NCBI GenBank assembly: GCA_026393975.1
Contig: JAPKZD010000003.1
Span: forward strand, 254,858 to 318,857
Direction: 5' to 3'
DNA from: Candidatus Aminicenantes bacterium
GTDB taxonomy: Bacteria > Acidobacteriota > Aminicenantia > Aminicenantales > Saccharicenantaceae
DNA: 64,000 nucleotides
The notes under the pieces were generated by a model. That model did not search any database and was not told the DNA's origin. It saw only the letters and a list, made by a program, of their open reading frames with translations. A program made the position numbers and the translations under genes. Below, piece by piece: positions 55,360 to 63,426 of the stretch; position 1 is the first letter of the stretch; every line of letters begins with the position of its first letter.

Positions 55360-57690
55360 GTGATCGAGATGCACAGAACCAGCAGCTCAGCGAGAGCCGT
55401 CATACTGGCCTTCGCCTTGACCCTGGGTTTTCTTCGGGTCCCCCTGTCGCAGAGCGCCCCACCGGACAAGACCAAGGGCTTCTTTCCCGTTTCCGTATGG
55501 TACCCCGGCGGCAAGGCCCGCGCCCCGATGCTCGAGACCGTGACGCCGCAGTCCCGCGAGACCTGGAAGAAAGACATCGACCAGATCAAGCGCCTCGGCT
55601 TCAACACCGTCCGGACGTGGATCGAGTGGACCGCTTGCGAGAGGACCGAGGGAAAATACGATTTCTCGGCGCTCGAGCTCCTGACCGACCTGGCCGGCGA
55701 GGCGGGCCTGCGGGTTATCATCCAGGTCTACATCGACTCGGCGCCGGACTGGGTCGAGGCCCGTCACCCGGACTCCAAATTCGTCTCTTCGAACGGTGTC
55801 GCCGTGGAATCGCAGGCCGCGCCCGGCTTCTGCTTCGACCACGCCGGCGTCCAGGACAAGATCCTCCGCTTCTTCAAGGCGGCGGCCCGGGCCGTTAAGG
55901 GGAAACCCGCTTTCTACGGCTGGGACCTCTGGAGCGAGCCGCACATCATCAACTGGGCCGAGGTCACCTACGTCGGCGACCTCTCGAGCGTCCAGTTTTG
56001 CTACTGTCATTCGACCCAGGCTCGATTCCGGGAATGGCTCAAGAAAAAATACGTGACGATCGACGCCCTGAACAAGGCCTGGTACCGAACGCTCCGGGCC
56101 TGGGATGAGGTCGAGCCGCCGCGCTTCGGGACCATCCTGACCTTCACGGACTACATCGACTGGAAGGAGTTCATTTCCGACAAGCTGGCCGAGGACCTGG
56201 CCCTCAAGGCCGCGGCCGTCAAGTCGGTCCTGCCGGACACGGTCGTCACCAGCCACTCGGCCGGGCCGGGTATCTTCACCCGGCCGGACTGGTCGGGCAC
56301 ACCCGACGACCGGAAGATGTCGGACAGCGTCGATTTCTACGGGGCCTCGATCTACCCCAAGCACGCCTGGACGATCAAGCCCTGGTCGCCCACGTACCGG
56401 TCCTCGGGCCTCGACTTCGTCCGGTCCATGGGCATCGGCAACGGCGGCTTCTATATTGGCGAGCTCCAGGCCGGCTATGGCGTCTTCGGCATGAAGATGA
56501 GCATGCCCGTGGTCGGCACCGACATCCGAGACTGGATGTGGAGCGCGGTCGCCTACGGCGCGCGGGCCGTCAACATCTACGCCTATTATCCCATGAGCAC
56601 GGGCTACGAAGCCGGCGGCTACGGACTGGTCGAGCTCGACGGCAAGGTCACCGAGCGGGCCGAGGCCGGCGGCCGGGTCGCCCGGGTCATCACGGCCAAC
56701 AAGGACCTCTTCCTCAAGGCCCAGCCGGCGCGGGCGGAGATCGCCATCCTCTATAATCCCCTGTCGCACATGGTCGGCGGCCAGCAGTCGTTCACCGGCG
56801 AAGGCCAGACCGTCGGCGTCAACAACCTAAGCGAATCGCTGCAGGGCGTCCACCGGGCTTTCTTCGAACGGAACATCCCGGTCGATTTCCTCCACGTCAG
56901 GGACCTGGGGACGGCGCGGGCGGCCGGCTACAAGCTCATCATCGCGCCCTATCCGGTGATGATGTCCCAGCCCCACGTCAAGGCCCTGGCCGACTATGTC
57001 CGCGACGGCGGGACGCTCCTGACGGAGGCCCGCTGCGGCTGGGTCGATGAGAAGGGGTTCTCCAGCCCGGTCATCCCCGGCGGCGGGCTCCATGAGGTCC
57101 TCGGCTGCCGGGAGATCGAGCTCACGCCGCTCGCCAAAACGGGCGTCATCGAGGTCAAGGTGGCCGACGAAGTTATCCCCCTACTCAAGCCTGGGGACAA
57201 GCTCGACAGCCTCTTCTTCGAGGAAAGCTTCGACGTCTTCGGTCCGGCGAGCCGGGTCTTGGCGACATTCCCGGACGGGCGGCCGGCCATCGTCGCCGCG
57301 CCCTTCGGGAAGGGCCGGGCCGTCATCGCCGGATCCTTCCTCGGCTCGGCCTATCATCATTTCAAGAATCCAAATAACGGAAAATTCTTCGCCGGTCTGG
57401 CCGAATGCCTGAAGATCGCGCCGCCGGTCCGCGTGACCGCGTCCGCGCCCGACGCCGTGGTCGAGGGGCGGCTTCTCCAAGGCGACGGATATGCCCTTCT
57501 CTTCGGGTTCAACCGGGGCGAAAAGCCGGTCACGGCGAAATTCGCCGTCAAGACGGACGGCGTCCGCGCGGCCGCCGCCAACTTGGAAACGGGCGAAGCC
57601 GTGACGGTCGCCAGGGACGGGGACCGGGCGGTCGTCGAGAAGGCCCTCAAACCCGGCGAGGTCTGGGTCGTCCGCATCGATGGGCGTTGA
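55360..57690 (+). CDS. GH42-like (beta-galactosidase / exo-beta-hexosaminidase clan A) glycosidase with trimerisation domain
   Basis: Signal peptide, GFNTVR.W.EW...E..EG.YDF, CFD, WDLWSEPH, CYC...Q..FR.WL and IGELQAG. Confidence 0.85.
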   Translation: MIEMHRTSSSARAVILAFALTLGFLRVPLSQSAPPDKTKGFFPVSVWYPGGKARAPMLETVTPQSRETWKKDIDQIKRLGFNTVRTWIEWTACERTEGKYDFSALELLTDLAGEAGLRVIIQVYIDSAPDWVEARHPDSKFVSSNGVAVESQAAPGFCFDHAGVQDKILRFFKAAARAVKGKPAFYGWDLWSEPHIINWAEVTYVGDLSSVQFCYCHSTQARFREWLKKKYVTIDALNKAWYRTLRAWDEVEPPRFGTILTFTDYIDWKEFISDKLAEDLALKAAAVKSVLPDTVVTSHSAGPGIFTRPDWSGTPDDRKMSDSVDFYGASIYPKHAWTIKPWSPTYRSSGLDFVRSMGIGNGGFYIGELQAGYGVFGMKMSMPVVGTDIRDWMWSAVAYGARAVNIYAYYPMSTGYEAGGYGLVELDGKVTERAEAGGRVARVITANKDLFLKAQPARAEIAILYNPLSHMVGGQQSFTGEGQTVGVNNLSESLQGVHRAFFERNIPVDFLHVRDLGTARAAGYKLIIAPYPVMMSQPHVKALADYVRDGGTLLTEARCGWVDEKGFSSPVIPGGGLHEVLGCREIELTPLAKTGVIEVKVADEVIPLLKPGDKLDSLFFEESFDVFGPASRVLATFPDGRPAIVAAPFGKGRAVIAGSFLGSAYHHFKNPNNGKFFAGLAECLKIAPPVRVTASAPDAVVEGRLLQGDGYALLFGFNRGEKPVTAKFAVKTDGVRAAAANLETGEAVTVARDGDRAVVEKALKPGEVWVVRIDGR

Positions 57691-58674
57691 GTGCCTACGG
57701 CCATGAAGGCAATGGAATTCTGCGGCGCGATCGACGTCGGCGGGACGAAGATCGCTTCGGCCTTGTTCACCCGGGAGGGGGAGATCTCGGCCAAGGACAA
57801 GATCTCCATCGACAAATCCGGAGGCGAAGCCGCGGCCGGACAGGTCGGCGACAAGATCGAGGCGCTGGCGAAGGCCGTCCGAGCGGTCGGCGGCCGTCTC
57901 GCCGCCGTCGGGATCTCGGTCCCCGGCATCGCCACCTCCGCGAGCGGCAAGGTCTGGGCGCCCAACATTCCCGGCTGGGACCAGTATCCGCTATTGGATA
58001 AGCTCAAGGAAAGACAAGAATGCGCTATTGTTCTCGAAAGCGACCGGAGCGCCTATGTCGCCGGCGAGTCCTGGCGCGGGGCCGCGGCCGGCGCGCGTGA
58101 CGCGGTCTTCCTGGCCGTCGGGACGGGGATCGGCGCTGGGATCATCTCCGGCGGCCGCATCCTCCATGGGCATGAGGACATCGCCGGGGCCGTCGGCTGG
58201 TTCGGCCTCAACCCCGCCTTCAAGCCGGAGTACGCCTCCATGGGCTCGTTCGAAGCCGAAGCCTCGGGGAATTCCGTGGCCCGGAAAGCGCGCGAGCTCC
58301 TGGAGCGGGGAATGGCGTCGTCGATACTCGACCTGGCCGGGGGCCGGGTCGAAGCCGTGACAGCCGAAGTTGTGGCCGAGGCGGCTCGGAAAAAGGACCC
58401 CCTGGCCCTGGAGATCGTCGCCGAGACCGTGACCTACCTGGCCATGGGCATCGCCAACATCGTCAGCATCCTCAATCCCGAAGTCGTCGTCGTCGGGGGA
58501 GGCCTCTTCCAGGCCGCGGATGTCTTTCTCGACCCGGTCCGCCGGGAATTCAAGCGCTGGGCCCAGCCGCTCGCCGCCCGAACGGTCCGGATCGAGCTTT
58601 CCGCTCTTGGCGAAGACGCCGGTCTCTATGGCTGCGCCAAGCTCGCCTGGGACCGGCGGGAAGCGGATTCTTAG
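57691..58674 (+). CDS. ROK family sugar kinase
   Basis: IDVGGTKI, GISVPG, ESD...GE.W.GA, GTGIGAG, G.G.FE..ASG and V.GGG. The start may instead be ATG 57703. Confidence 0.92.
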   Translation: MPTAMKAMEFCGAIDVGGTKIASALFTREGEISAKDKISIDKSGGEAAAGQVGDKIEALAKAVRAVGGRLAAVGISVPGIATSASGKVWAPNIPGWDQYPLLDKLKERQECAIVLESDRSAYVAGESWRGAAAGARDAVFLAVGTGIGAGIISGGRILHGHEDIAGAVGWFGLNPAFKPEYASMGSFEAEASGNSVARKARELLERGMASSILDLAGGRVEAVTAEVVAEAARKKDPLALEIVAETVTYLAMGIANIVSILNPEVVVVGGGLFQAADVFLDPVRREFKRWAQPLAARTVRIELSALGEDAGLYGCAKLAWDRREADS

Positions 58675-58714: not shown

Positions 58715-59488
58715 ATGTCAGCTCAAGCCTATCTCGACAGGATCCGGGAGATCCTGGACGAGGTCCAAACGAAGGAGATGAAGAATATCCGGGCCGCGGC
58801 CAAGATCATGGCTGCCGCGATCAGGAAGAAAGGCCGCGTCTACATGTTCGGCAGCGGTCACTCGGTCATCCCCGTCCTGGACATTTTCCCGCGCTACGGC
58901 AGTTACGTCGGATTTTTCCCGCTCTACGACCCACGGCTGATGTGGTCGAACGTCATCGGGCCGGGCGGGGCTCGGGAGCTCCTCTGGCTCGAAAGGCAGG
59001 AGGGCTACGCCCGCGTTTTCCTCCAAAGCTACCCGCTCGAAAAGCGCGACGTGATGCTCGTCTTTTCCCACGGCGGGCTGAACGCCGCGCCGATCGAGAT
59101 GGCCCTTGAGGCCAGGTCCCGCGGCCTCAAGGTCGTCACCGTCTCCTCGCACGCGAACGCGAAAATCGGCAAGCGGTCTCATTCGTCGGGCCAGATCCTG
59201 TCCGAGGCGGCCGACGTGGCCATCGACAACCACGTCCCGCCCGAGGACGCCCTGGTCGACGTCGGGCAGATCGAGCGAGTGGCCGCGGGCTCGACCGTCG
59301 CGGCCGTTTCGATCGCCATGTCCCTCGTCGCGGAGACCGCGGCCGTGCTGGCTAAGACCGGCAAGGTCCCGCCGACCTTCGTCTCGCCCAACGTCCACGG
59401 CGTTCCTCCAGGCCACATGGCCGGCGTCTACCAGGCTTTCACCGAGTTCTATTACGCCCGGCCGTTTAAGGCCAAGCGCAAACCCTGA
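58715..59488 (+). CDS. SIS-domain sugar-phosphate isomerase-like protein (UPF0309-type)
   Basis: GGAGG SD at 58701, FGSGHS, ER.EGYA, FSHGG.N..PIEMA, AIDNH.P..DA and F.SPN. Confidence 0.85.
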   Translation: MSAQAYLDRIREILDEVQTKEMKNIRAAAKIMAAAIRKKGRVYMFGSGHSVIPVLDIFPRYGSYVGFFPLYDPRLMWSNVIGPGGARELLWLERQEGYARVFLQSYPLEKRDVMLVFSHGGLNAAPIEMALEARSRGLKVVTVSSHANAKIGKRSHSSGQILSEAADVAIDNHVPPEDALVDVGQIERVAAGSTVAAVSIAMSLVAETAAVLAKTGKVPPTFVSPNVHGVPPGHMAGVYQAFTEFYYARPFKAKRKP

Positions 59489-59505: not shown

Positions 59506-62500
59506 ATGAGCGCATCCGATCGGGCCGGCGCCGCCGGCGTTTCGAGGCTCCAGTCCTCGGCCTGGGCCGGGATCTTTGTCTTCGGCATCGTCATGGCTAT
59601 CCTGGGGGCCATCCTGCCTTCGCTCTTCGACAGGATCGGGTTCGGCGCGGCGGCGGCCGGCAACCTCTTCCTGACCATGAATTTCGCCATGCTCGTCACG
59701 ACCCTCTTTTTCGGCCCCCTCGTCGACCGCTTCGGCTTCAAGACGCTCCTGGCCGTTTCGGCCTTCCTTGTCGCCGCCGCCTTCCTGCTGCTGTCCTTCG
59801 CCTCGACCTACGGACTCGTCCTCGGTGCGGCCGTCGTCCTCGGCCTCGGGGGCGGTGGGCTCAACGGTGGGACGAACGCTCTGACGAGCGACCTCCACGA
59901 GGGCGAGAAGCGCGGCTCCGCCCTCAACGTCCTAGGCATCTTTTTCGGTTTCGGCGCCCTGTCCATCCCCTTCCTTATCGGCACCCTGCGCGATCTGCTG
60001 GGCCTGCGGAACATCCTTTTCCTGGCCACGGGACTCGGCCTCATTCCCTTCCTCCTCTATCTCGCCCTCCGCTTTCCCAAGGCCAAGCAAGCCCAGGGAT
60101 TCCCGATTAAGGAAGCGGCCGGCATCGTCCGCAGCCCGCTCCTCTGGCTCTGCGCCTTCATCCTCTTCTTCCAGTCGGGGAACGAATTCACTGTCGGAGG
60201 CTGGATCTCGACCTACCTCCAGAAGACCTTCGGGCTCGGCGGAAGCATCTCCGCTCTGATCCTCGCCGCCTACTGGGGGGCCATCATGTCGGGCCGCCTT
60301 TTCTCGAGCCGCCTCGTCCGGGTGGTCCGCAGCGAAACGCTCATCCTGGGGAGCGCGGCGCTGGCCCTTTGCGCCGCGGCGCTCATGGCCCTCGCTCCTT
60401 CCGGGATGGCGGCGGCGGCGGGCGCCGTCGCCATCGGCCTCGGCTTCGCCGCTATCTATCCGACGACCCTGGCCATCGTCGGCGAAAAGTTCGCCGCGTT
60501 CACCGGGACGGCCTTCAGCATCGTCATCGCCGTGGGGCTCGTCGGCGGCATGCTCGCGCCCTGGCTGGCCGGAAAGATCGCCGAGGCCTCGAGCCTGAGG
60601 CAGGGGCTTCTCATCCCCGTCTTCAACTGCGCCATGATCGTCGTCCTGTCGGTACTCGTGGGGAGAGTGGTCAAAAAGAAAAAGGCCGTTTCTTTTTGTC
60701 TTCTTATCGGCCTGACGTTCTCCGGTCTGCTCGCAGGGAATCCTTCCGTCGCGGCTCCCGGCGATGCGGCGTCCGCCGCCGTCCGGATCGAGCTCGTCCG
60801 CCGCTTCCCCGCGCTTCTTGCCGAGAAAGGGATCACGGACGACGCCGGCCGTGAGATCGACGGCCGCCTCGACAAGCTCATCGCCGCGGCCCGCTCGGGC
60901 GGAGCCGCGACGGAAAAACAGATCCTCCGCACCTCGCTCGACGCCCTGAATTATTCCGCCTCTAACCTGGCCGGTTTCCCCCAGGCGGCCTTCGATCGGC
61001 CCATCGGGACGATCCTCGAGAAGTTCGGCCGGACGATCGCCCCGGGCGATATCGAAGCCAGGGCCGAAGGGAGCGCCTGTCCGGTCGGCGGCATCGGCGC
61101 CGGCGGGTACGAGCGCCTCATGAACGGAAATTTCTCGACCTGGTTCCTCAAGCTCGGCTGGATGGTCGAGGACACGGTCTGGGCCGACCAGTTCCATGTC
61201 TTCATGAAATCCGGCGGTCGGACGGTCGCCCGGACGCTCGTGACAACGGCGCCGCCGGCTGGGGAAGGCCTTGGCGGCTGGGCCTGGAACTACCCGGTGG
61301 GAAAAGGCGATTATTTCGCCCTCTACCCCAAATCCGGCTTTTCGTACGAAGAGAACCCGGACCTGCCGGTCAAGATGGCGGTCGTCCAGTTCTCGCCCGT
61401 CATCGCCGGGAACTACAAGGAGACGAGCTATCCCGTCGCCGTTTACAGGTGGGTGGCCGTCAACCCGACCCGGCAGCCTGTCGAAGTCAGCATCCTCCTG
61501 ACCTGGGAGAACATGGTCGGCTGGGAGGCCGTCCGGCCTAACCCCGCCCCAGGCGGGGCTCCCCAGGCGTCTTTCGTCTGGGACCGAAAGAGCGCCGGCA
61601 GCTTCAATGAATTCGTCGAGGAGGGGTCCCGCAAAGGCATCCTCTTCCAGCGAAAAGGTCAGGATGTGAAAACCGGGAACGCTCTCGCCGGCACCATGGC
61701 CATCGCCGCCCTCGAAAGCCCGGGCAAGACCCGCGTCCATTTTCAAGCCGCTTTCGACCCTCGCGGCGACGGCACCGACATTTGGAAGAGGTTCGCCACG
61801 GACGGCACGCTCGACGGCGTCCGCGTCTCCGCTCCGCTCGGGCCGCGGCAGGAAACGGGGGCTGCTCTCGCTGTCACGTTCACGCTCAAGCCGGGCGAAC
61901 GGCTCGAAGTCCCCTTCGCCATCGCTTGGGATTTTCCCTACTACGAGTTCGAGGCCGGGGCCAAGCACAAAAAGAAATACACGGCCTTCGCCGGCGCGGA
62001 AGGCACGAACGCCTTCCGCCTGGCCTCCGAAGCGCTGGGTCGGGCGGGGGAGTGGGAGCGGGCCGTCGACGATTGGCAGAAGCCCGTCCTGACGAACCCG
62101 CGGCTTCCCGACTGGTTCAAGCAGGCCCTGCTCAACGAGCTCTACGTCCTGACCGAGACGAGCATCTGGGACGCCGCGACGAACCTCCACGCTTATCTCG
62201 AAAGCGCCGACTACCTCATGTACGGGACGACCGATGTCGATTCCTATTGCTGGCACGTGCTCAAGCTCTGGCCCGAGCTCGAGACGACCCATATGAGCTA
62301 TCTCGCCGGGACCATCCCGCTCGAAGACACTTCTTACCGCGCCTTCCAATACGCGGTCGTCTTTCCCAAGGAGGTTCCGCCGGACAAGATGGACTATTAC
62401 TGGAATACGATCAAGACCGCGGGGATGGTCCCTCACGACGTCGGCTCGCCGCGCAAGAGGCCCTGGACCATCCTGAACGCCTTCGACTGGCAGAACGCCA

Positions 62501-63426
62501 ACTTCTGGAAGGACATCAACCCCAAGTTCCCGCTCCGGGCCTACCGGGATTTCCTGTCGACGGGGGCCCGGGATATCGGTTTTCTCATGAAGATGTTCGA
62601 GGCCTCGGTCGTCGCCCTGGATACGCTCGAAGCTCGCTTCGGCGATAAGGTGACCCACGTCCCGCTCAACGAGGCCATCCCCGACCAGACTTACGACACC
62701 TGGCGGATGAAAGGGGAGAGCGCCTATGTCGGGCTCCTCTGGCTGGCCGGCCTCCGGGCAACGGTCCGGATGGGAGAGACCCTCTACGGCCGCGGCCTGG
62801 TCCGGGCCGGCGATGCCGATATCCTCGAGATCATCGGAAAATACCGGAGGTGGTTCGAGTCGGGCCGGACCTCTCTGCGAAAGCTCTGGGACGAGCGGGG
62901 CGGCTATTTCCACATCGACGCGCACACGGACGACATCATGACCGACCAGCTCTTCGGCGTCTGGTACGCCGGCATGCTCGGCCTCGACGCCGACGGCCGG
63001 GACCCGATCGTCCCGCCCGCCGAGGTCAAGCGGACCCTGCGGACGATCTACGAAAAGAACGTCCTCGGCTTCGGCGGAGGCCTGATGGGCGCGGTGAACG
63101 GCCGTAAAGCCGACGGACGCCAGCTCCTGAGCCAGCAGGGTGATGAGGTCTGGGTCGGCACGGCCTACGCGTTCGCGGCGAACTGCGTCCTCAACGGCCT
63201 CCGCGACGAAGGGATGCACACGGCCTACGGGCTCTACCACGTCGTCTACAGCCCCTTCGGCCAGGGCTATTTCTTCAAGACACCCGAGGCCTACCTCAAC
63301 CCGGACGAGGTCCAGTGGAACAATGCCGAAGCGAAATACGGAGAGAAGCTTTTCCGGGCGATGAAGTATATGCGGCCCGGCGCCGTCTGGGCGCTTTATG
63401 AAGCGTTCTTGAAAAAAACGCCGTAA
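59506..63426 (+). CDS. MFS sugar transporter fused to a GH116 glycosidase
   Basis: aa 1-~388 form a 12-TM FucP/GlcP-like MFS (G.L.DR.G, GGTNAL.SD, FFG.GA, G.EF..GGW). Then KKKK and a hydrophobic segment. Then GH116 (P.GGIGAG, YPKS, SP.I..NY.ETSYPV, YLES.DY.MY.T.DV, IPDQTYDTW, QG.EVW.G, F.TPEA, YMRP.A.W). Confidence 0.9.
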   Translation: MSASDRAGAAGVSRLQSSAWAGIFVFGIVMAILGAILPSLFDRIGFGAAAAGNLFLTMNFAMLVTTLFFGPLVDRFGFKTLLAVSAFLVAAAFLLLSFASTYGLVLGAAVVLGLGGGGLNGGTNALTSDLHEGEKRGSALNVLGIFFGFGALSIPFLIGTLRDLLGLRNILFLATGLGLIPFLLYLALRFPKAKQAQGFPIKEAAGIVRSPLLWLCAFILFFQSGNEFTVGGWISTYLQKTFGLGGSISALILAAYWGAIMSGRLFSSRLVRVVRSETLILGSAALALCAAALMALAPSGMAAAAGAVAIGLGFAAIYPTTLAIVGEKFAAFTGTAFSIVIAVGLVGGMLAPWLAGKIAEASSLRQGLLIPVFNCAMIVVLSVLVGRVVKKKKAVSFCLLIGLTFSGLLAGNPSVAAPGDAASAAVRIELVRRFPALLAEKGITDDAGREIDGRLDKLIAAARSGGAATEKQILRTSLDALNYSASNLAGFPQAAFDRPIGTILEKFGRTIAPGDIEARAEGSACPVGGIGAGGYERLMNGNFSTWFLKLGWMVEDTVWADQFHVFMKSGGRTVARTLVTTAPPAGEGLGGWAWNYPVGKGDYFALYPKSGFSYEENPDLPVKMAVVQFSPVIAGNYKETSYPVAVYRWVAVNPTRQPVEVSILLTWENMVGWEAVRPNPAPGGAPQASFVWDRKSAGSFNEFVEEGSRKGILFQRKGQDVKTGNALAGTMAIAALESPGKTRVHFQAAFDPRGDGTDIWKRFATDGTLDGVRVSAPLGPRQETGAALAVTFTLKPGERLEVPFAIAWDFPYYEFEAGAKHKKKYTAFAGAEGTNAFRLASEALGRAGEWERAVDDWQKPVLTNPRLPDWFKQALLNELYVLTETSIWDAATNLHAYLESADYLMYGTTDVDSYCWHVLKLWPELETTHMSYLAGTIPLEDTSYRAFQYAVVFPKEVPPDKMDYYWNTIKTAGMVPHDVGSPRKRPWTILNAFDWQNANFWKDINPKFPLRAYRDFLSTGARDIGFLMKMFEASVVALDTLEARFGDKVTHVPLNEAIPDQTYDTWRMKGESAYVGLLWLAGLRATVRMGETLYGRGLVRAGDADILEIIGKYRRWFESGRTSLRKLWDERGGYFHIDAHTDDIMTDQLFGVWYAGMLGLDADGRDPIVPPAEVKRTLRTIYEKNVLGFGGGLMGAVNGRKADGRQLLSQQGDEVWVGTAYAFAANCVLNGLRDEGMHTAYGLYHVVYSPFGQGYFFKTPEAYLNPDEVQWNNAEAKYGEKLFRAMKYMRPGAVWALYEAFLKKTP

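What the first reader, a model, noticed from the sequence alone, without database searches (positions are those of the whole stretch)
59506..63426. Single-polypeptide MFS importer-GH116 glycosidase fusion with a topology-switching 13th helix
Seen: one uninterrupted 1306-codon ORF. A complete 12-TM MFS ends at about aa 388 (nt ~60669). It is followed by KKKK, an ~18-residue hydrophobic stretch (AVSFCLLIGLTFSGLLAG), an AxA-like site (SVAA-PG), and a full GH116. Established: MFS C-termini are cytoplasmic, and the GH116 nucleophile and acid/base motifs (here YLESADY and IPDQTYD) are intact. Inference: the basic cluster plus extra helix would place the glycosidase outside the inner membrane, tethered to (or signal-peptidase-released from) the transporter, coupling glycoside cleavage to uptake. 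I do not know of a characterised MFS-GH116 fusion. The alternative is an accidental fusion by deletion of a stop/intergenic region; the junction has an AAAAAG-AAAAAG repeat and this window contains other deletions.
Basis: partly seen in the sequence, partly recalled or inferred. Interest (0 to 1): 0.78.

Follow-up and report, generated by a model that had tools for sequence, protein, structure and literature searches.

The report
Sugar importer fused to exported glycosidase
A 38-base deletion joined a sugar-importer gene to the neighbouring exported glycosidase gene in an uncultured Aminicenantes bacterium, turning the enzyme's export signal into a 13th membrane segment; similar joins arose independently at least three times and stay under selection, so this is a real but modest natural experiment, not a new kind of machine.

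Summary
The 1306-codon ORF (59506-63426, +) is real: MFS_1, then a hydrophobic segment, then a complete GH116 with its catalytic Glu/Asp and all sugar-binding residues intact.

Origin is shown. Sister Aminicenantes genomes carry two genes, MFS (399 aa) and signal-peptide-bearing GH116 (~920 aa), overlapping in ATGA. The window lacks exactly 38 nt between 60684|60685. Those 38 nt held the MFS tail and stop, the Shine-Dalgarno site, the GH116 ATG and the first signal-peptide codons. The "13th helix" is therefore the former GH116 signal peptide, so a periplasmic enzyme is inherited, not new.

- **Not an artefact:** contigs from two studies reproduce the junction with 0 differences.
- **Not decaying:** a second MAG (L013) shares the junction. 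Junction-proximal codons 301-500 show dS 0.20 and dN/dS 0.19, with no stops.
- **Recurrent:** L076 (35-nt deletion) and L003/P0015 are independent MFS-GH116 fusions. The same MFS family is fused to a GH42-like enzyme in P0122/P0130 (57% identical).
- **Rare:** 2 of 27 adjacent pairs in species-representative genomes are fused.

Whether the enzyme stays tethered or is released by signal peptidase is untested. Verdict: genuine, functional, lineage-specific fusion; a new variant of a known kind; moderate interest.

The parts
59506..63426 (+). Fused MFS-GH116 ORF, 1306 aa, including the stop codon
59492..59499 (+). Shine-Dalgarno-like AAGGAGAG, 6 nt upstream of the ATG of the fused ORF; the only SD left for both halves
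   Evidence: read from the sequence
59506..60672 (+). MFS transporter part (aa 1-389), 12 helices, TsgA-like; 86% identical without gaps to the standalone 399-aa MFS of L001
60673..60684 (+). KKKK (aa 390-393, AAAAAGAAAAAG): remnant of the MFS cytoplasmic tail (KKEKKERSEA* in relatives); now supplies the positive n-region for the following hydrophobic segment
60684..60685 (+). Deletion scar. Relatives have 38 nt here (for example AAGGAAAGGAGCCCGGTATGAGGGAACTCAAGACCCGC) holding the MFS stop, SD, GH116 ATG and the first signal-peptide codons
60685..60738 (+). Former signal-peptide h-region AVSFCLLIGLTFSGLLAG (aa 394-411), now an internal 13th hydrophobic segment
60739..60756 (+). Former signal-peptide c-region NPSVAA (aa 412-417). 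SVA|A fits the -3/-1 rule; VAA|P has Pro at +1
   Evidence: sequence; same motif in unfused P0002
60757..61074 (+). Conserved ~105-aa N-terminal extension of this GH116 clade (aa 418-523), not covered by TxGH116
61075..62055 (+). GH116 N-terminal beta-sandwich domain (aa 524-850)
62191..63396 (+). GH116 catalytic (alpha/alpha)6 domain (aa 896-1297). Nucleophile E899 is codon 62200-62202; acid/base D1064 is codon 62695-62697
55360..57690 (+). Upstream operon gene: exported GH42/GH35-like glycosidase (776 aa)
57691..58674 (+). ROK-family sugar kinase (327 aa)
58715..59488 (+). SIS-domain sugar isomerase-like protein (257 aa, NF002805 at 240 bits)

Best explanation
This is a genuine, expressed-as-one-ORF fusion of two adjacent operon genes in an uncultured Aminicenantia (Acidobacteriota) bacterium.

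Shown: the ancestral state is MFS importer (399 aa) and Sec-exported GH116 glycosidase (~920 aa), translationally coupled through an ATGA overlap. A 38-nt deletion removed the last MFS codons and stop, the SD, the GH116 ATG and the signal-peptide n-region. Because 38 mod 3 = 2, the loss cancels the frame offset of the overlap. The lysine-rich cytoplasmic tail of the MFS now stands in for the lost n-region. The intact h- and c-regions of the signal peptide follow the cytoplasmic C-terminus of helix 12.

Inferred: the segment inserts N-in/C-out and carries the GH116 domain to the periplasm, where the standalone enzyme already works. The two halves are now made from one start in 1:1 ratio at one translocon. 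The fused gene works as importer plus periplasmic exo-glycosidase in a glycan-utilisation operon (GH18, GH42-like, ROK kinase, SIS isomerase, MFS-GH116, sulfatase, TonB-dependent receptor in relatives).

I lean about 55:45 that signal peptidase I still cuts at SVA|A and releases the enzyme, because the Gly-Asn-Pro helix breaker and the small -3/-1 residues are kept. The alternative is a permanent tether.
For: ORF and domains.

Two-gene ancestral state:
- L001/L002 (GH116 92% identical) and L004 have MFS 399 aa and GH116 920-923 aa overlapping by 4 nt.
- The DNA alignment shows a 38-nt gap in the window.
- Related strains in runs X8 and X12 have exactly 38 extra letters between 60684 and 60685, containing AAGGAAAGGAG, TGA and ATG.

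Not an artefact: Logan contigs of X1 (study P1) and X2, X3 (study P2) cover 60300-61100 with 0 differences and 0 gaps.

Shared and selected:
- L013, from another MAG, has the same junction KKKK|AVSFCLLIGLTFSGLLAG.
- Window versus L013 over 685 codons: no stop, dS 0.31, dN/dS 0.19.
- Junction-proximal codons 301-500: 26 synonymous and 14 nonsynonymous codon changes, dN/dS 0.19.

Recurrence:
- The tree forces at least 2 origins; window is sister to unfused P0002 (100/100) and L003 is sister to unfused P0273 (100/98).
- L076 is fused by a different, 35-nt deletion.
- The MFS-GH42-like fusions P0122 and P0130 are 57% identical over full length, and P0130 is on at least 20 contigs.

Export of the standalone enzyme: 40 of 40 relatives have an N-terminal hydrophobic segment plus an AxA-like motif.

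Catalytic competence: E441, D593, D452, H507, T591, E777, R786 and R792 of TxGH116 are all conserved.
Against: - No protein, activity or transcript evidence. Metatranscriptome contigs from the same lake gave only spurious ~20-nt matches.
- The fusion is rare: 2 of 27 adjacent MFS-GH116 pairs among species representatives, and one representative among 1.84 billion proteins. That fits tolerated better than favoured.
- The dN/dS test is partly confounded. Identity is mosaic: the window is closest to L013 only across ORF nt 901-1500, while its flanks are closest to unfused genomes. Some divergence was therefore imported by recombination from split loci.
- Topology and cleavage rest on sequence features and general Sec/MFS knowledge. 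No SignalP or TMHMM-type predictor was available.
- I could not check whether the same genome also keeps a split copy, because the genome search was shut.
Confidence: 0.82

Rival explanations
1. Selected substrate-channelling device. The ex-signal peptide is not cleaved, and GH116 stays tethered over the periplasmic mouth of the MFS. The released monosaccharide passes directly to the importer, and this advantage drove the repeated fusions.
For: At least three independent MFS-GH116 fusions plus a deeply diverged MFS-GH42-like fused lineage in the same cassette type. Purifying selection on the fused ORF. The fused junction allele sits in different flanking backgrounds, consistent with spread by recombination. 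The h-region is 18 residues, long enough to span a membrane.
Against: Fusions are sporadic tips: 25 of 27 adjacent pairs stay split, and P0015 is a singleton among unfused relatives. The c-region keeps a classical cleavage motif identical to that of unfused relatives. In P0122 the hydrophobic linker (GVAGLLLVALAA, 12 residues by my count) is signal-peptide-sized, too short for a stable membrane helix. A ~105-aa flexible extension separates the helix from the catalytic domains.
Confidence: 0.3
2. Neutral or mildly harmful accident in which one half is no longer functional. For example, the MFS misfolds with the added segment, or GH116 is trapped in the cytoplasm, and the gene is on its way to loss.
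For: It arose by a simple deletion. It is rare among relatives. The artificial LplT-Aas C-terminal fusion disrupted LplT expression in E. coli (PMC11416262).
Against: dN/dS is about 0.17-0.19 in both halves, with no stops over 685 codons, between two genomes that share the junction. All catalytic and sugar-binding residues are intact. The allele is present at 100% identity in at least five runs from two studies.
Confidence: 0.07
3. Two products are still made. Internal initiation at the in-frame GTG 60667 (V388) would give MVKKKKAVSF..., a normal signal-peptide precursor, so the fusion is only apparent at the ORF level.
For: An in-frame GTG sits just before KKKK and is preceded by the purine-rich GGGGAGAG. 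L013 has TTG at the neighbouring codon.
Against: The real SD (AAGGAAAGGAG, about 7 nt from the ATG in relatives) was deleted. The purine run abuts the GTG with 0-1 nt spacing. There is no stop codon for the MFS, so ribosomes read through regardless.
Confidence: 0.05
4. Assembly or sequencing artefact: a collapse or indel at the A-rich junction.
For: A-rich sequence at the junction. In low-depth run X6, contigs break at 60659-60670.
Against: The difference is a clean 38-nt deletion, not a homopolymer slip. Three independent Logan assemblies from two studies match with 0 differences. A separately assembled MAG has the same junction.
Confidence: 0.01

Closest known systems
Two-gene MFS + GH116 operons of sister Aminicenantes (L001/L002, L004, L012, L014; P0002-P0006)
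   Same: Same gene order (GH18, GH42-like, ROK, SIS, MFS, GH116, sulfatase). MFS 86-93% and GH116 81-95% identical. Same signal-peptide h- and c-regions.
   Different: The relatives have an MFS stop, SD and GH116 ATG in an ATGA overlap. The window lacks those 38 nt and encodes one polypeptide.
TxGH116 beta-glucosidase of Thermoanaerobacterium xylanolyticum (PDB 5BVU; PMC10167657)
   Same: Both GH116 domains align (E 1e-156). Nucleophile E441, acid/base D593 and sugar-binding D452, H507, T591, E777, R786, R792 are all conserved.
   Different: The window enzyme has a ~105-aa N-terminal extension and an export signal, and is fused to a transporter. Its substrate is unknown.
Uncharacterised MFS-GH42/35-like fusions P0122 and P0130 (ROK-SIS-MFS~GH42 loci)
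   Same: Same MFS family (41-44% identical), same ROK-SIS cassette, and the same design: 12-helix MFS, then basic residues, a hydrophobic signal-like segment, an AxA-like motif and an exported glycosidase.
   Different: The partner is GH42-like rather than GH116. This fused lineage is old (57% identity between members) and widespread (at least 20 contigs), whereas the GH116 fusions are young tips.
ABC importers with the substrate-binding domain fused to the membrane domain (OpuA, GlnPQ, OpuF; PMC7673798)
   Same: An extracytoplasmic soluble partner of a transporter is covalently joined to it through an anchoring membrane helix.
   Different: Those are ABC transporters fused to a binding domain, a conserved and characterised design. 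Here a secondary MFS transporter is fused to a hydrolase through a former cleavable signal peptide.
LplT-Aas (MFS lysophospholipid flippase and acyltransferase), fused into one ORF in some bacteria (PMC11416262)
   Same: An MFS transporter and the enzyme of the adjacent operon gene are joined into one ORF in some lineages and split in others.
   Different: Aas acts on the cytoplasmic face, so no extra membrane segment is needed. Here the enzyme is periplasmic.

Membership tests
Major facilitator superfamily (Pfam MFS_1) | Profile match above the gathering threshold | tested here: met
   PF07690, 119.4 bits against a cutoff of 33.4, aa 20-352
Major facilitator superfamily (Pfam MFS_1) | Twelve transmembrane helices in two six-helix halves, with motif A (GxxxDRxGxK) between helices 2 and 3 | tested here: met
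   Hydropathy peaks fit 12 helices (helices 4 and 8 fall below the 1.6 threshold or merge with neighbours). GPLVDRFGFK is at aa 70-79. Gap-free alignment to standalone 399-aa MFS proteins.
TsgA (NCBIfam NF002982 equivalog) | Score above the equivalog cutoff | tested here: not met
   88.4 bits against a cutoff of 221. TsgA-like in length and register only, not a TsgA orthologue.
Glycoside hydrolase family 116 | Both the N-terminal beta-sandwich and the catalytic (alpha/alpha)6 domain are present | tested here: met
   PF12215 at 272.9 bits and PF04685 at 285.9 bits. TxGH116 E 1e-156 over aa 135-908 of the GH116 part.
Glycoside hydrolase family 116 | Catalytic nucleophile Glu and acid/base Asp (TxGH116 E441, D593) and the -1 subsite residues | tested here: met
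   E899 and D1064 align to E441 and D593. D452, H507, T591, E777, R786 and R792 are also conserved (alignment, with residue roles from PMC10167657).
Glycoside hydrolase family 116 | Retaining beta-glycosidase activity (glucoside, xyloside or GlcNAc) | not testable with these tools
   Needs an enzyme assay.
Sec type I signal peptide (the state of the junction segment in relatives) | Positive n-region, hydrophobic h-region, c-region with small residues at -3 and -1 | tested here: met
   40 of 40 standalone relatives have a hydrophobic N-terminal segment and an AxA-like motif, and 38 of 40 have K/R before it. A stricter filter passes 21 of 40. This is a heuristic, not SignalP.
Sec type I signal peptide (the state of the junction segment in relatives) | Cleavage by signal peptidase I, in the standalone or the fused form | not testable with these tools
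   Needs N-terminal sequencing, a western blot or metaproteomics.
Conserved multi-domain architecture (MFS_1 + GH116) | The architecture is inherited across a clade rather than sporadic | tested here: not met
   Only the window with L013, L076 and L003/P0015 are fused. Each is nested among split relatives.

The most novel reading that the evidence does not exclude
In sediment and freshwater Acidobacteriota, the ROK-SIS-MFS sugar-salvage cassette repeatedly captures whichever exported glycosidase lies downstream (GH116 at least three times, GH42-like at least once). It does so by converting the enzyme's signal peptide into an uncleaved 13th helix. The result is a tethered hydrolase-on-importer machine that hands the freshly cut monosaccharide straight to the transporter, and that is favoured and spread by recombination under nutrient scarcity.
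Probability: 0.2. Interest if true: 0.7.

Novelty: new variant of a known kind. Interest (0 to 1): 0.4.

Why it matters
Both domains are ordinary, and fusion of adjacent operon genes is a known process. What stands out is how fully this case is resolved:

- The ancestral two-gene state, the exact 38-nt deletion, a second genome sharing it, and independent repeats are all visible.
- It shows that a 12-helix transporter ending in the cytoplasm and a downstream Sec-exported enzyme are topologically pre-adapted for in-frame fusion. The signal peptide simply becomes helix 13.
- It offers a ready natural test system, with fused and split alleles at about 90% identity, for two questions. Does signal peptidase cut an internal signal after 12 helices? 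Does tethering a periplasmic glycosidase to its importer improve uptake?
- For annotation, long MFS-glycosidase ORFs in MAGs should not be split automatically or dismissed as frameshift errors.

Tried and rejected
I could not look for a second, split copy in the window's own genome or use the relatives panel. I replaced it with the look-up of encoding contigs and a genome-contig scan.
The reverse experiment, laying relatives' contigs on the window at 82% likeness, gave the 38-nt insert instead.
- Metatranscriptome runs X21-X23 gave no real coverage, so there is no expression evidence.
- Literature searches for GH116 + MFS + fusion, and for MFS fused to a glycoside hydrolase, returned nothing relevant.
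- Assembly collapse at the A-rich junction was considered and rejected.
- A single origin for all MFS-GH116 fusions was considered and rejected: 0% of bootstrap trees support it, and the junctions differ.
- Inferring GlcNAc-ase specificity from the nagA/ROK context in relatives was considered. I do not adopt it, because every glucose-binding residue of TxGH116 is conserved.
- Structure prediction was not run. The fused protein exceeds the 1200-aa limit, and no deep alignment spans the junction.
Full report
**Observation.** The ORF 59506..63426 (+) is uninterrupted and encodes 1306 aa.
- Pfam places MFS_1 at aa 20-352, the GH116 N-terminal domain at 524-850 and the GH116 catalytic domain at 896-1297, all far above threshold.
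- The TsgA model aligns aa 24-394 to positions 18-389 of 395. The transporter is therefore complete, although the score (88 against a cutoff of 221 bits) shows it is not a TsgA orthologue.
- A hydropathy scan shows the MFS helices and one extra peak at 394-412.

**Catalytic integrity.**
- The GH116 part aligns to TxGH116 (5BVU) at E 1e-156.
- PMC10167657 names E441 as nucleophile and D593 as acid/base. It lists D452, H507, T591, E777, R786 and R792 as the sugar-binding residues.
- Counting along the alignment, the chain index is offset by 15 from the residue numbers, and every one of these residues is conserved here.
- The nucleophile is E899. The acid/base is D1064, the second Asp of IPDQTYD.

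**Origin of the fusion.**
- The closest homologues (75-92% identical) are standalone GH116 proteins of about 920 aa. They begin with M-x-G-H-K-x-R followed by the same hydrophobic segment.
- In L001/L002 (GH116 92%, MFS 86% identical) and L004, the locus reads ROK, SIS, MFS (399 aa), GH116 (920-923 aa). The last two genes overlap by 4 nt.
- The DNA alignment shows that the window lacks 38 nt present in L001/L002.
- Contigs of related strains in two sediment metagenomes (X8, X12) were laid on the window. They carry exactly 38 extra letters between 60684 and 60685: AAGGAAAGGAGCCCGGTATGAGGGAACTCAAGACCCGC.
- That insert contains the end of the MFS (K E R S P V stop), the Shine-Dalgarno AAGGAAAGGAG, and the GH116 start in an ATGA overlap followed by M R E L K T R.
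- Because 38 mod 3 = 2, the loss cancels the frame offset of the overlap.
- The "13th helix" is therefore the former signal peptide of GH116, and the MFS lysine tail replaces its lost n-region.

**Is it real?** Logan assemblies of X1 (study P1) and of X2 and X3 (study P2) each give a contig covering 60300-61100 with 0 differences and 0 gaps. One of these may be the source sample, but two studies are represented. In the low-depth run X6 the contigs break at 60659-60670, which I could not interpret.

**Is it kept?**
- A scan of species-representative genomes with an alignment of this MFS family returned 80 loci, nearly all Aminicenantes or Acidobacteriota MAGs.
- L013 (JBGOYY010000076.1, Candidatus Aminicenantia OBJ_0618_130150_31) has the same junction, KKKK|AVSFCLLIGLTFSGLLAG. 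Its DNA is identical to the window for 42 nt after the join.
- Window versus L013 over 685 codons: no stop, 89% nt identity, dS 0.31, dN/dS 0.19, with similar values in the MFS and GH116 halves.
- Identity is mosaic. The window is closest to L013 only across ORF nt 901-1500 (90-93%). Its outer flanks are closest to unfused L012, L014 and L001 (93-97%), which indicates homologous recombination.
- Restricting the test to junction-proximal codons 301-500 still gives 26 synonymous against 14 nonsynonymous codon changes, dS 0.20 and dN/dS 0.19.
- The fused allele has therefore persisted under purifying selection and sits in more than one background.

**Recurrence.**
- P0015 (L003, GCA_041890195.1; 57% identical) is another MFS-GH116 fusion in the same gene order.
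- P0015 is a singleton. Its nearest relatives are split, with a 30-nt spacer in L007/L008 and a nagA gene inserted between the two genes in L006.
- A maximum-likelihood tree of 42 GH116 sequences places the window sister to unfused P0002 (100/100) and L003 sister to unfused P0273 (100/98). No bootstrap tree allows a single origin.
- L076 is fused at a different point (...ARRTRK|GHRTVPAVLILF...), retaining residues of the signal-peptide n-region.
- Against its 88%-identical split relative L025, L076 shows a 35-nt deletion that removes TAG, AAGGAG, ATG and the first signal-peptide codons.
- The fused ORFs of L076 and L003 keep the catalytic motifs.
- There are thus at least three independent MFS-GH116 fusions.
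- The same MFS family is also fused to a GH42/35-like glycosidase in P0122 and P0130. These two are 57% identical over their full length, sit in ROK-SIS loci, and have a basic, hydrophobic, AxA-like linker. P0130 is found on at least 20 contigs.

**Frequency.**
- Of the 80 loci, 27 have GH116 directly after the MFS: 25 split and 2 fused.
- In 24 others, GH116 lies 1-2.8 kb downstream.
- Among 1.84 billion representative proteins, only P0015 spans the junction. Nearly all of the 150 best hits are standalone MFS proteins or fragments.

**Mechanism.**
- Shown: the deletion, the single start and SD, intact domains and selection.
- Established knowledge: 12-helix MFS proteins have both termini in the cytoplasm, and Sec signal peptides insert N-in/C-out.
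- All 40 standalone relatives carry an N-terminal hydrophobic segment with an AxA-like motif. The enzyme is therefore exported in the ancestral state, and the fusion keeps that topology.
- Inferred: the product inserts as 13 segments with GH116 in the periplasm.
- Whether signal peptidase I still cuts is open. VAA|P has Pro at +1, which disfavours cleavage there. SVA|A, with the Gly-Asn-Pro breaker at -6 to -4, looks classical and is identical in unfused P0002. I lean slightly toward release.
- The operon context (exported GH42-like enzyme, ROK kinase, SIS protein, sulfatase; GH18, nagA and a TonB-dependent receptor in relatives) points to glycan salvage. The sugar is unknown. The conserved TxGH116 subsite favours a glucoside-type substrate.

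**Comparison and verdict.**
- The closest relatives are the split operons.
- The closest functional analogues are ABC importers with a binding domain fused through an anchoring helix (PMC7673798) and LplT-Aas fused ORFs (PMC11416262).
- I found no described MFS-GH116 fusion.
- An earlier scan note reports an analogous NupG-type MFS fused through a lipoprotein signal peptide to a periplasmic enzyme. This is an unchecked lead, not evidence.
- The finding is real and well explained: a lineage-specific, selected but rare fusion by deletion. It is a new variant of a known kind, of moderate interest.

Noticed in passing
L013 and L014 (both from MAG OBJ_0618_130150_31): The same MAG holds a fused locus (contig coverage 54.9) and a split locus (coverage 42.9) on separate contigs. 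Either two strains were binned together or the genome has two paralogous loci.
   Followed up: partly
window 60757-61074 (aa 418-523): This GH116 clade has a conserved ~105-aa N-terminal extension with several invariant residues. It is absent from TxGH116 and unmatched by any Pfam domain; its function is unknown.
   Followed up: no
window ORF nt 1-2055 compared with L001, L012, L013, L014: Nucleotide identity across the operon is mosaic, and the nearest relative changes every few hundred bases. This indicates frequent homologous recombination among these Aminicenantes populations.
   Followed up: partly
P0129 (568 aa): A member of the same MFS family carries an N-terminal TIR_2 domain (TIR-MFS fusion, Pfam E 5e-28). 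This is an unusual pairing.
   Followed up: no
P0010 (1025 aa): This GH116 homologue has an arginine/proline-rich nonsense tail from about residue 730. It looks like a frameshift, either an assembly error or a pseudogene.
   Followed up: no
L006 4765-5928: In the closest split relative of P0015, a nagA gene (GlcNAc-6-P deacetylase, 335 bits) sits between the MFS and GH116. This hints that the cassette handles amino sugars in some lineages.
   Followed up: partly
window 60659-60670 in run X6: Logan contigs of low-depth run X6 break exactly at the start of the junction. This could be low coverage or a branch caused by co-occurring fused and split alleles.
   Followed up: no
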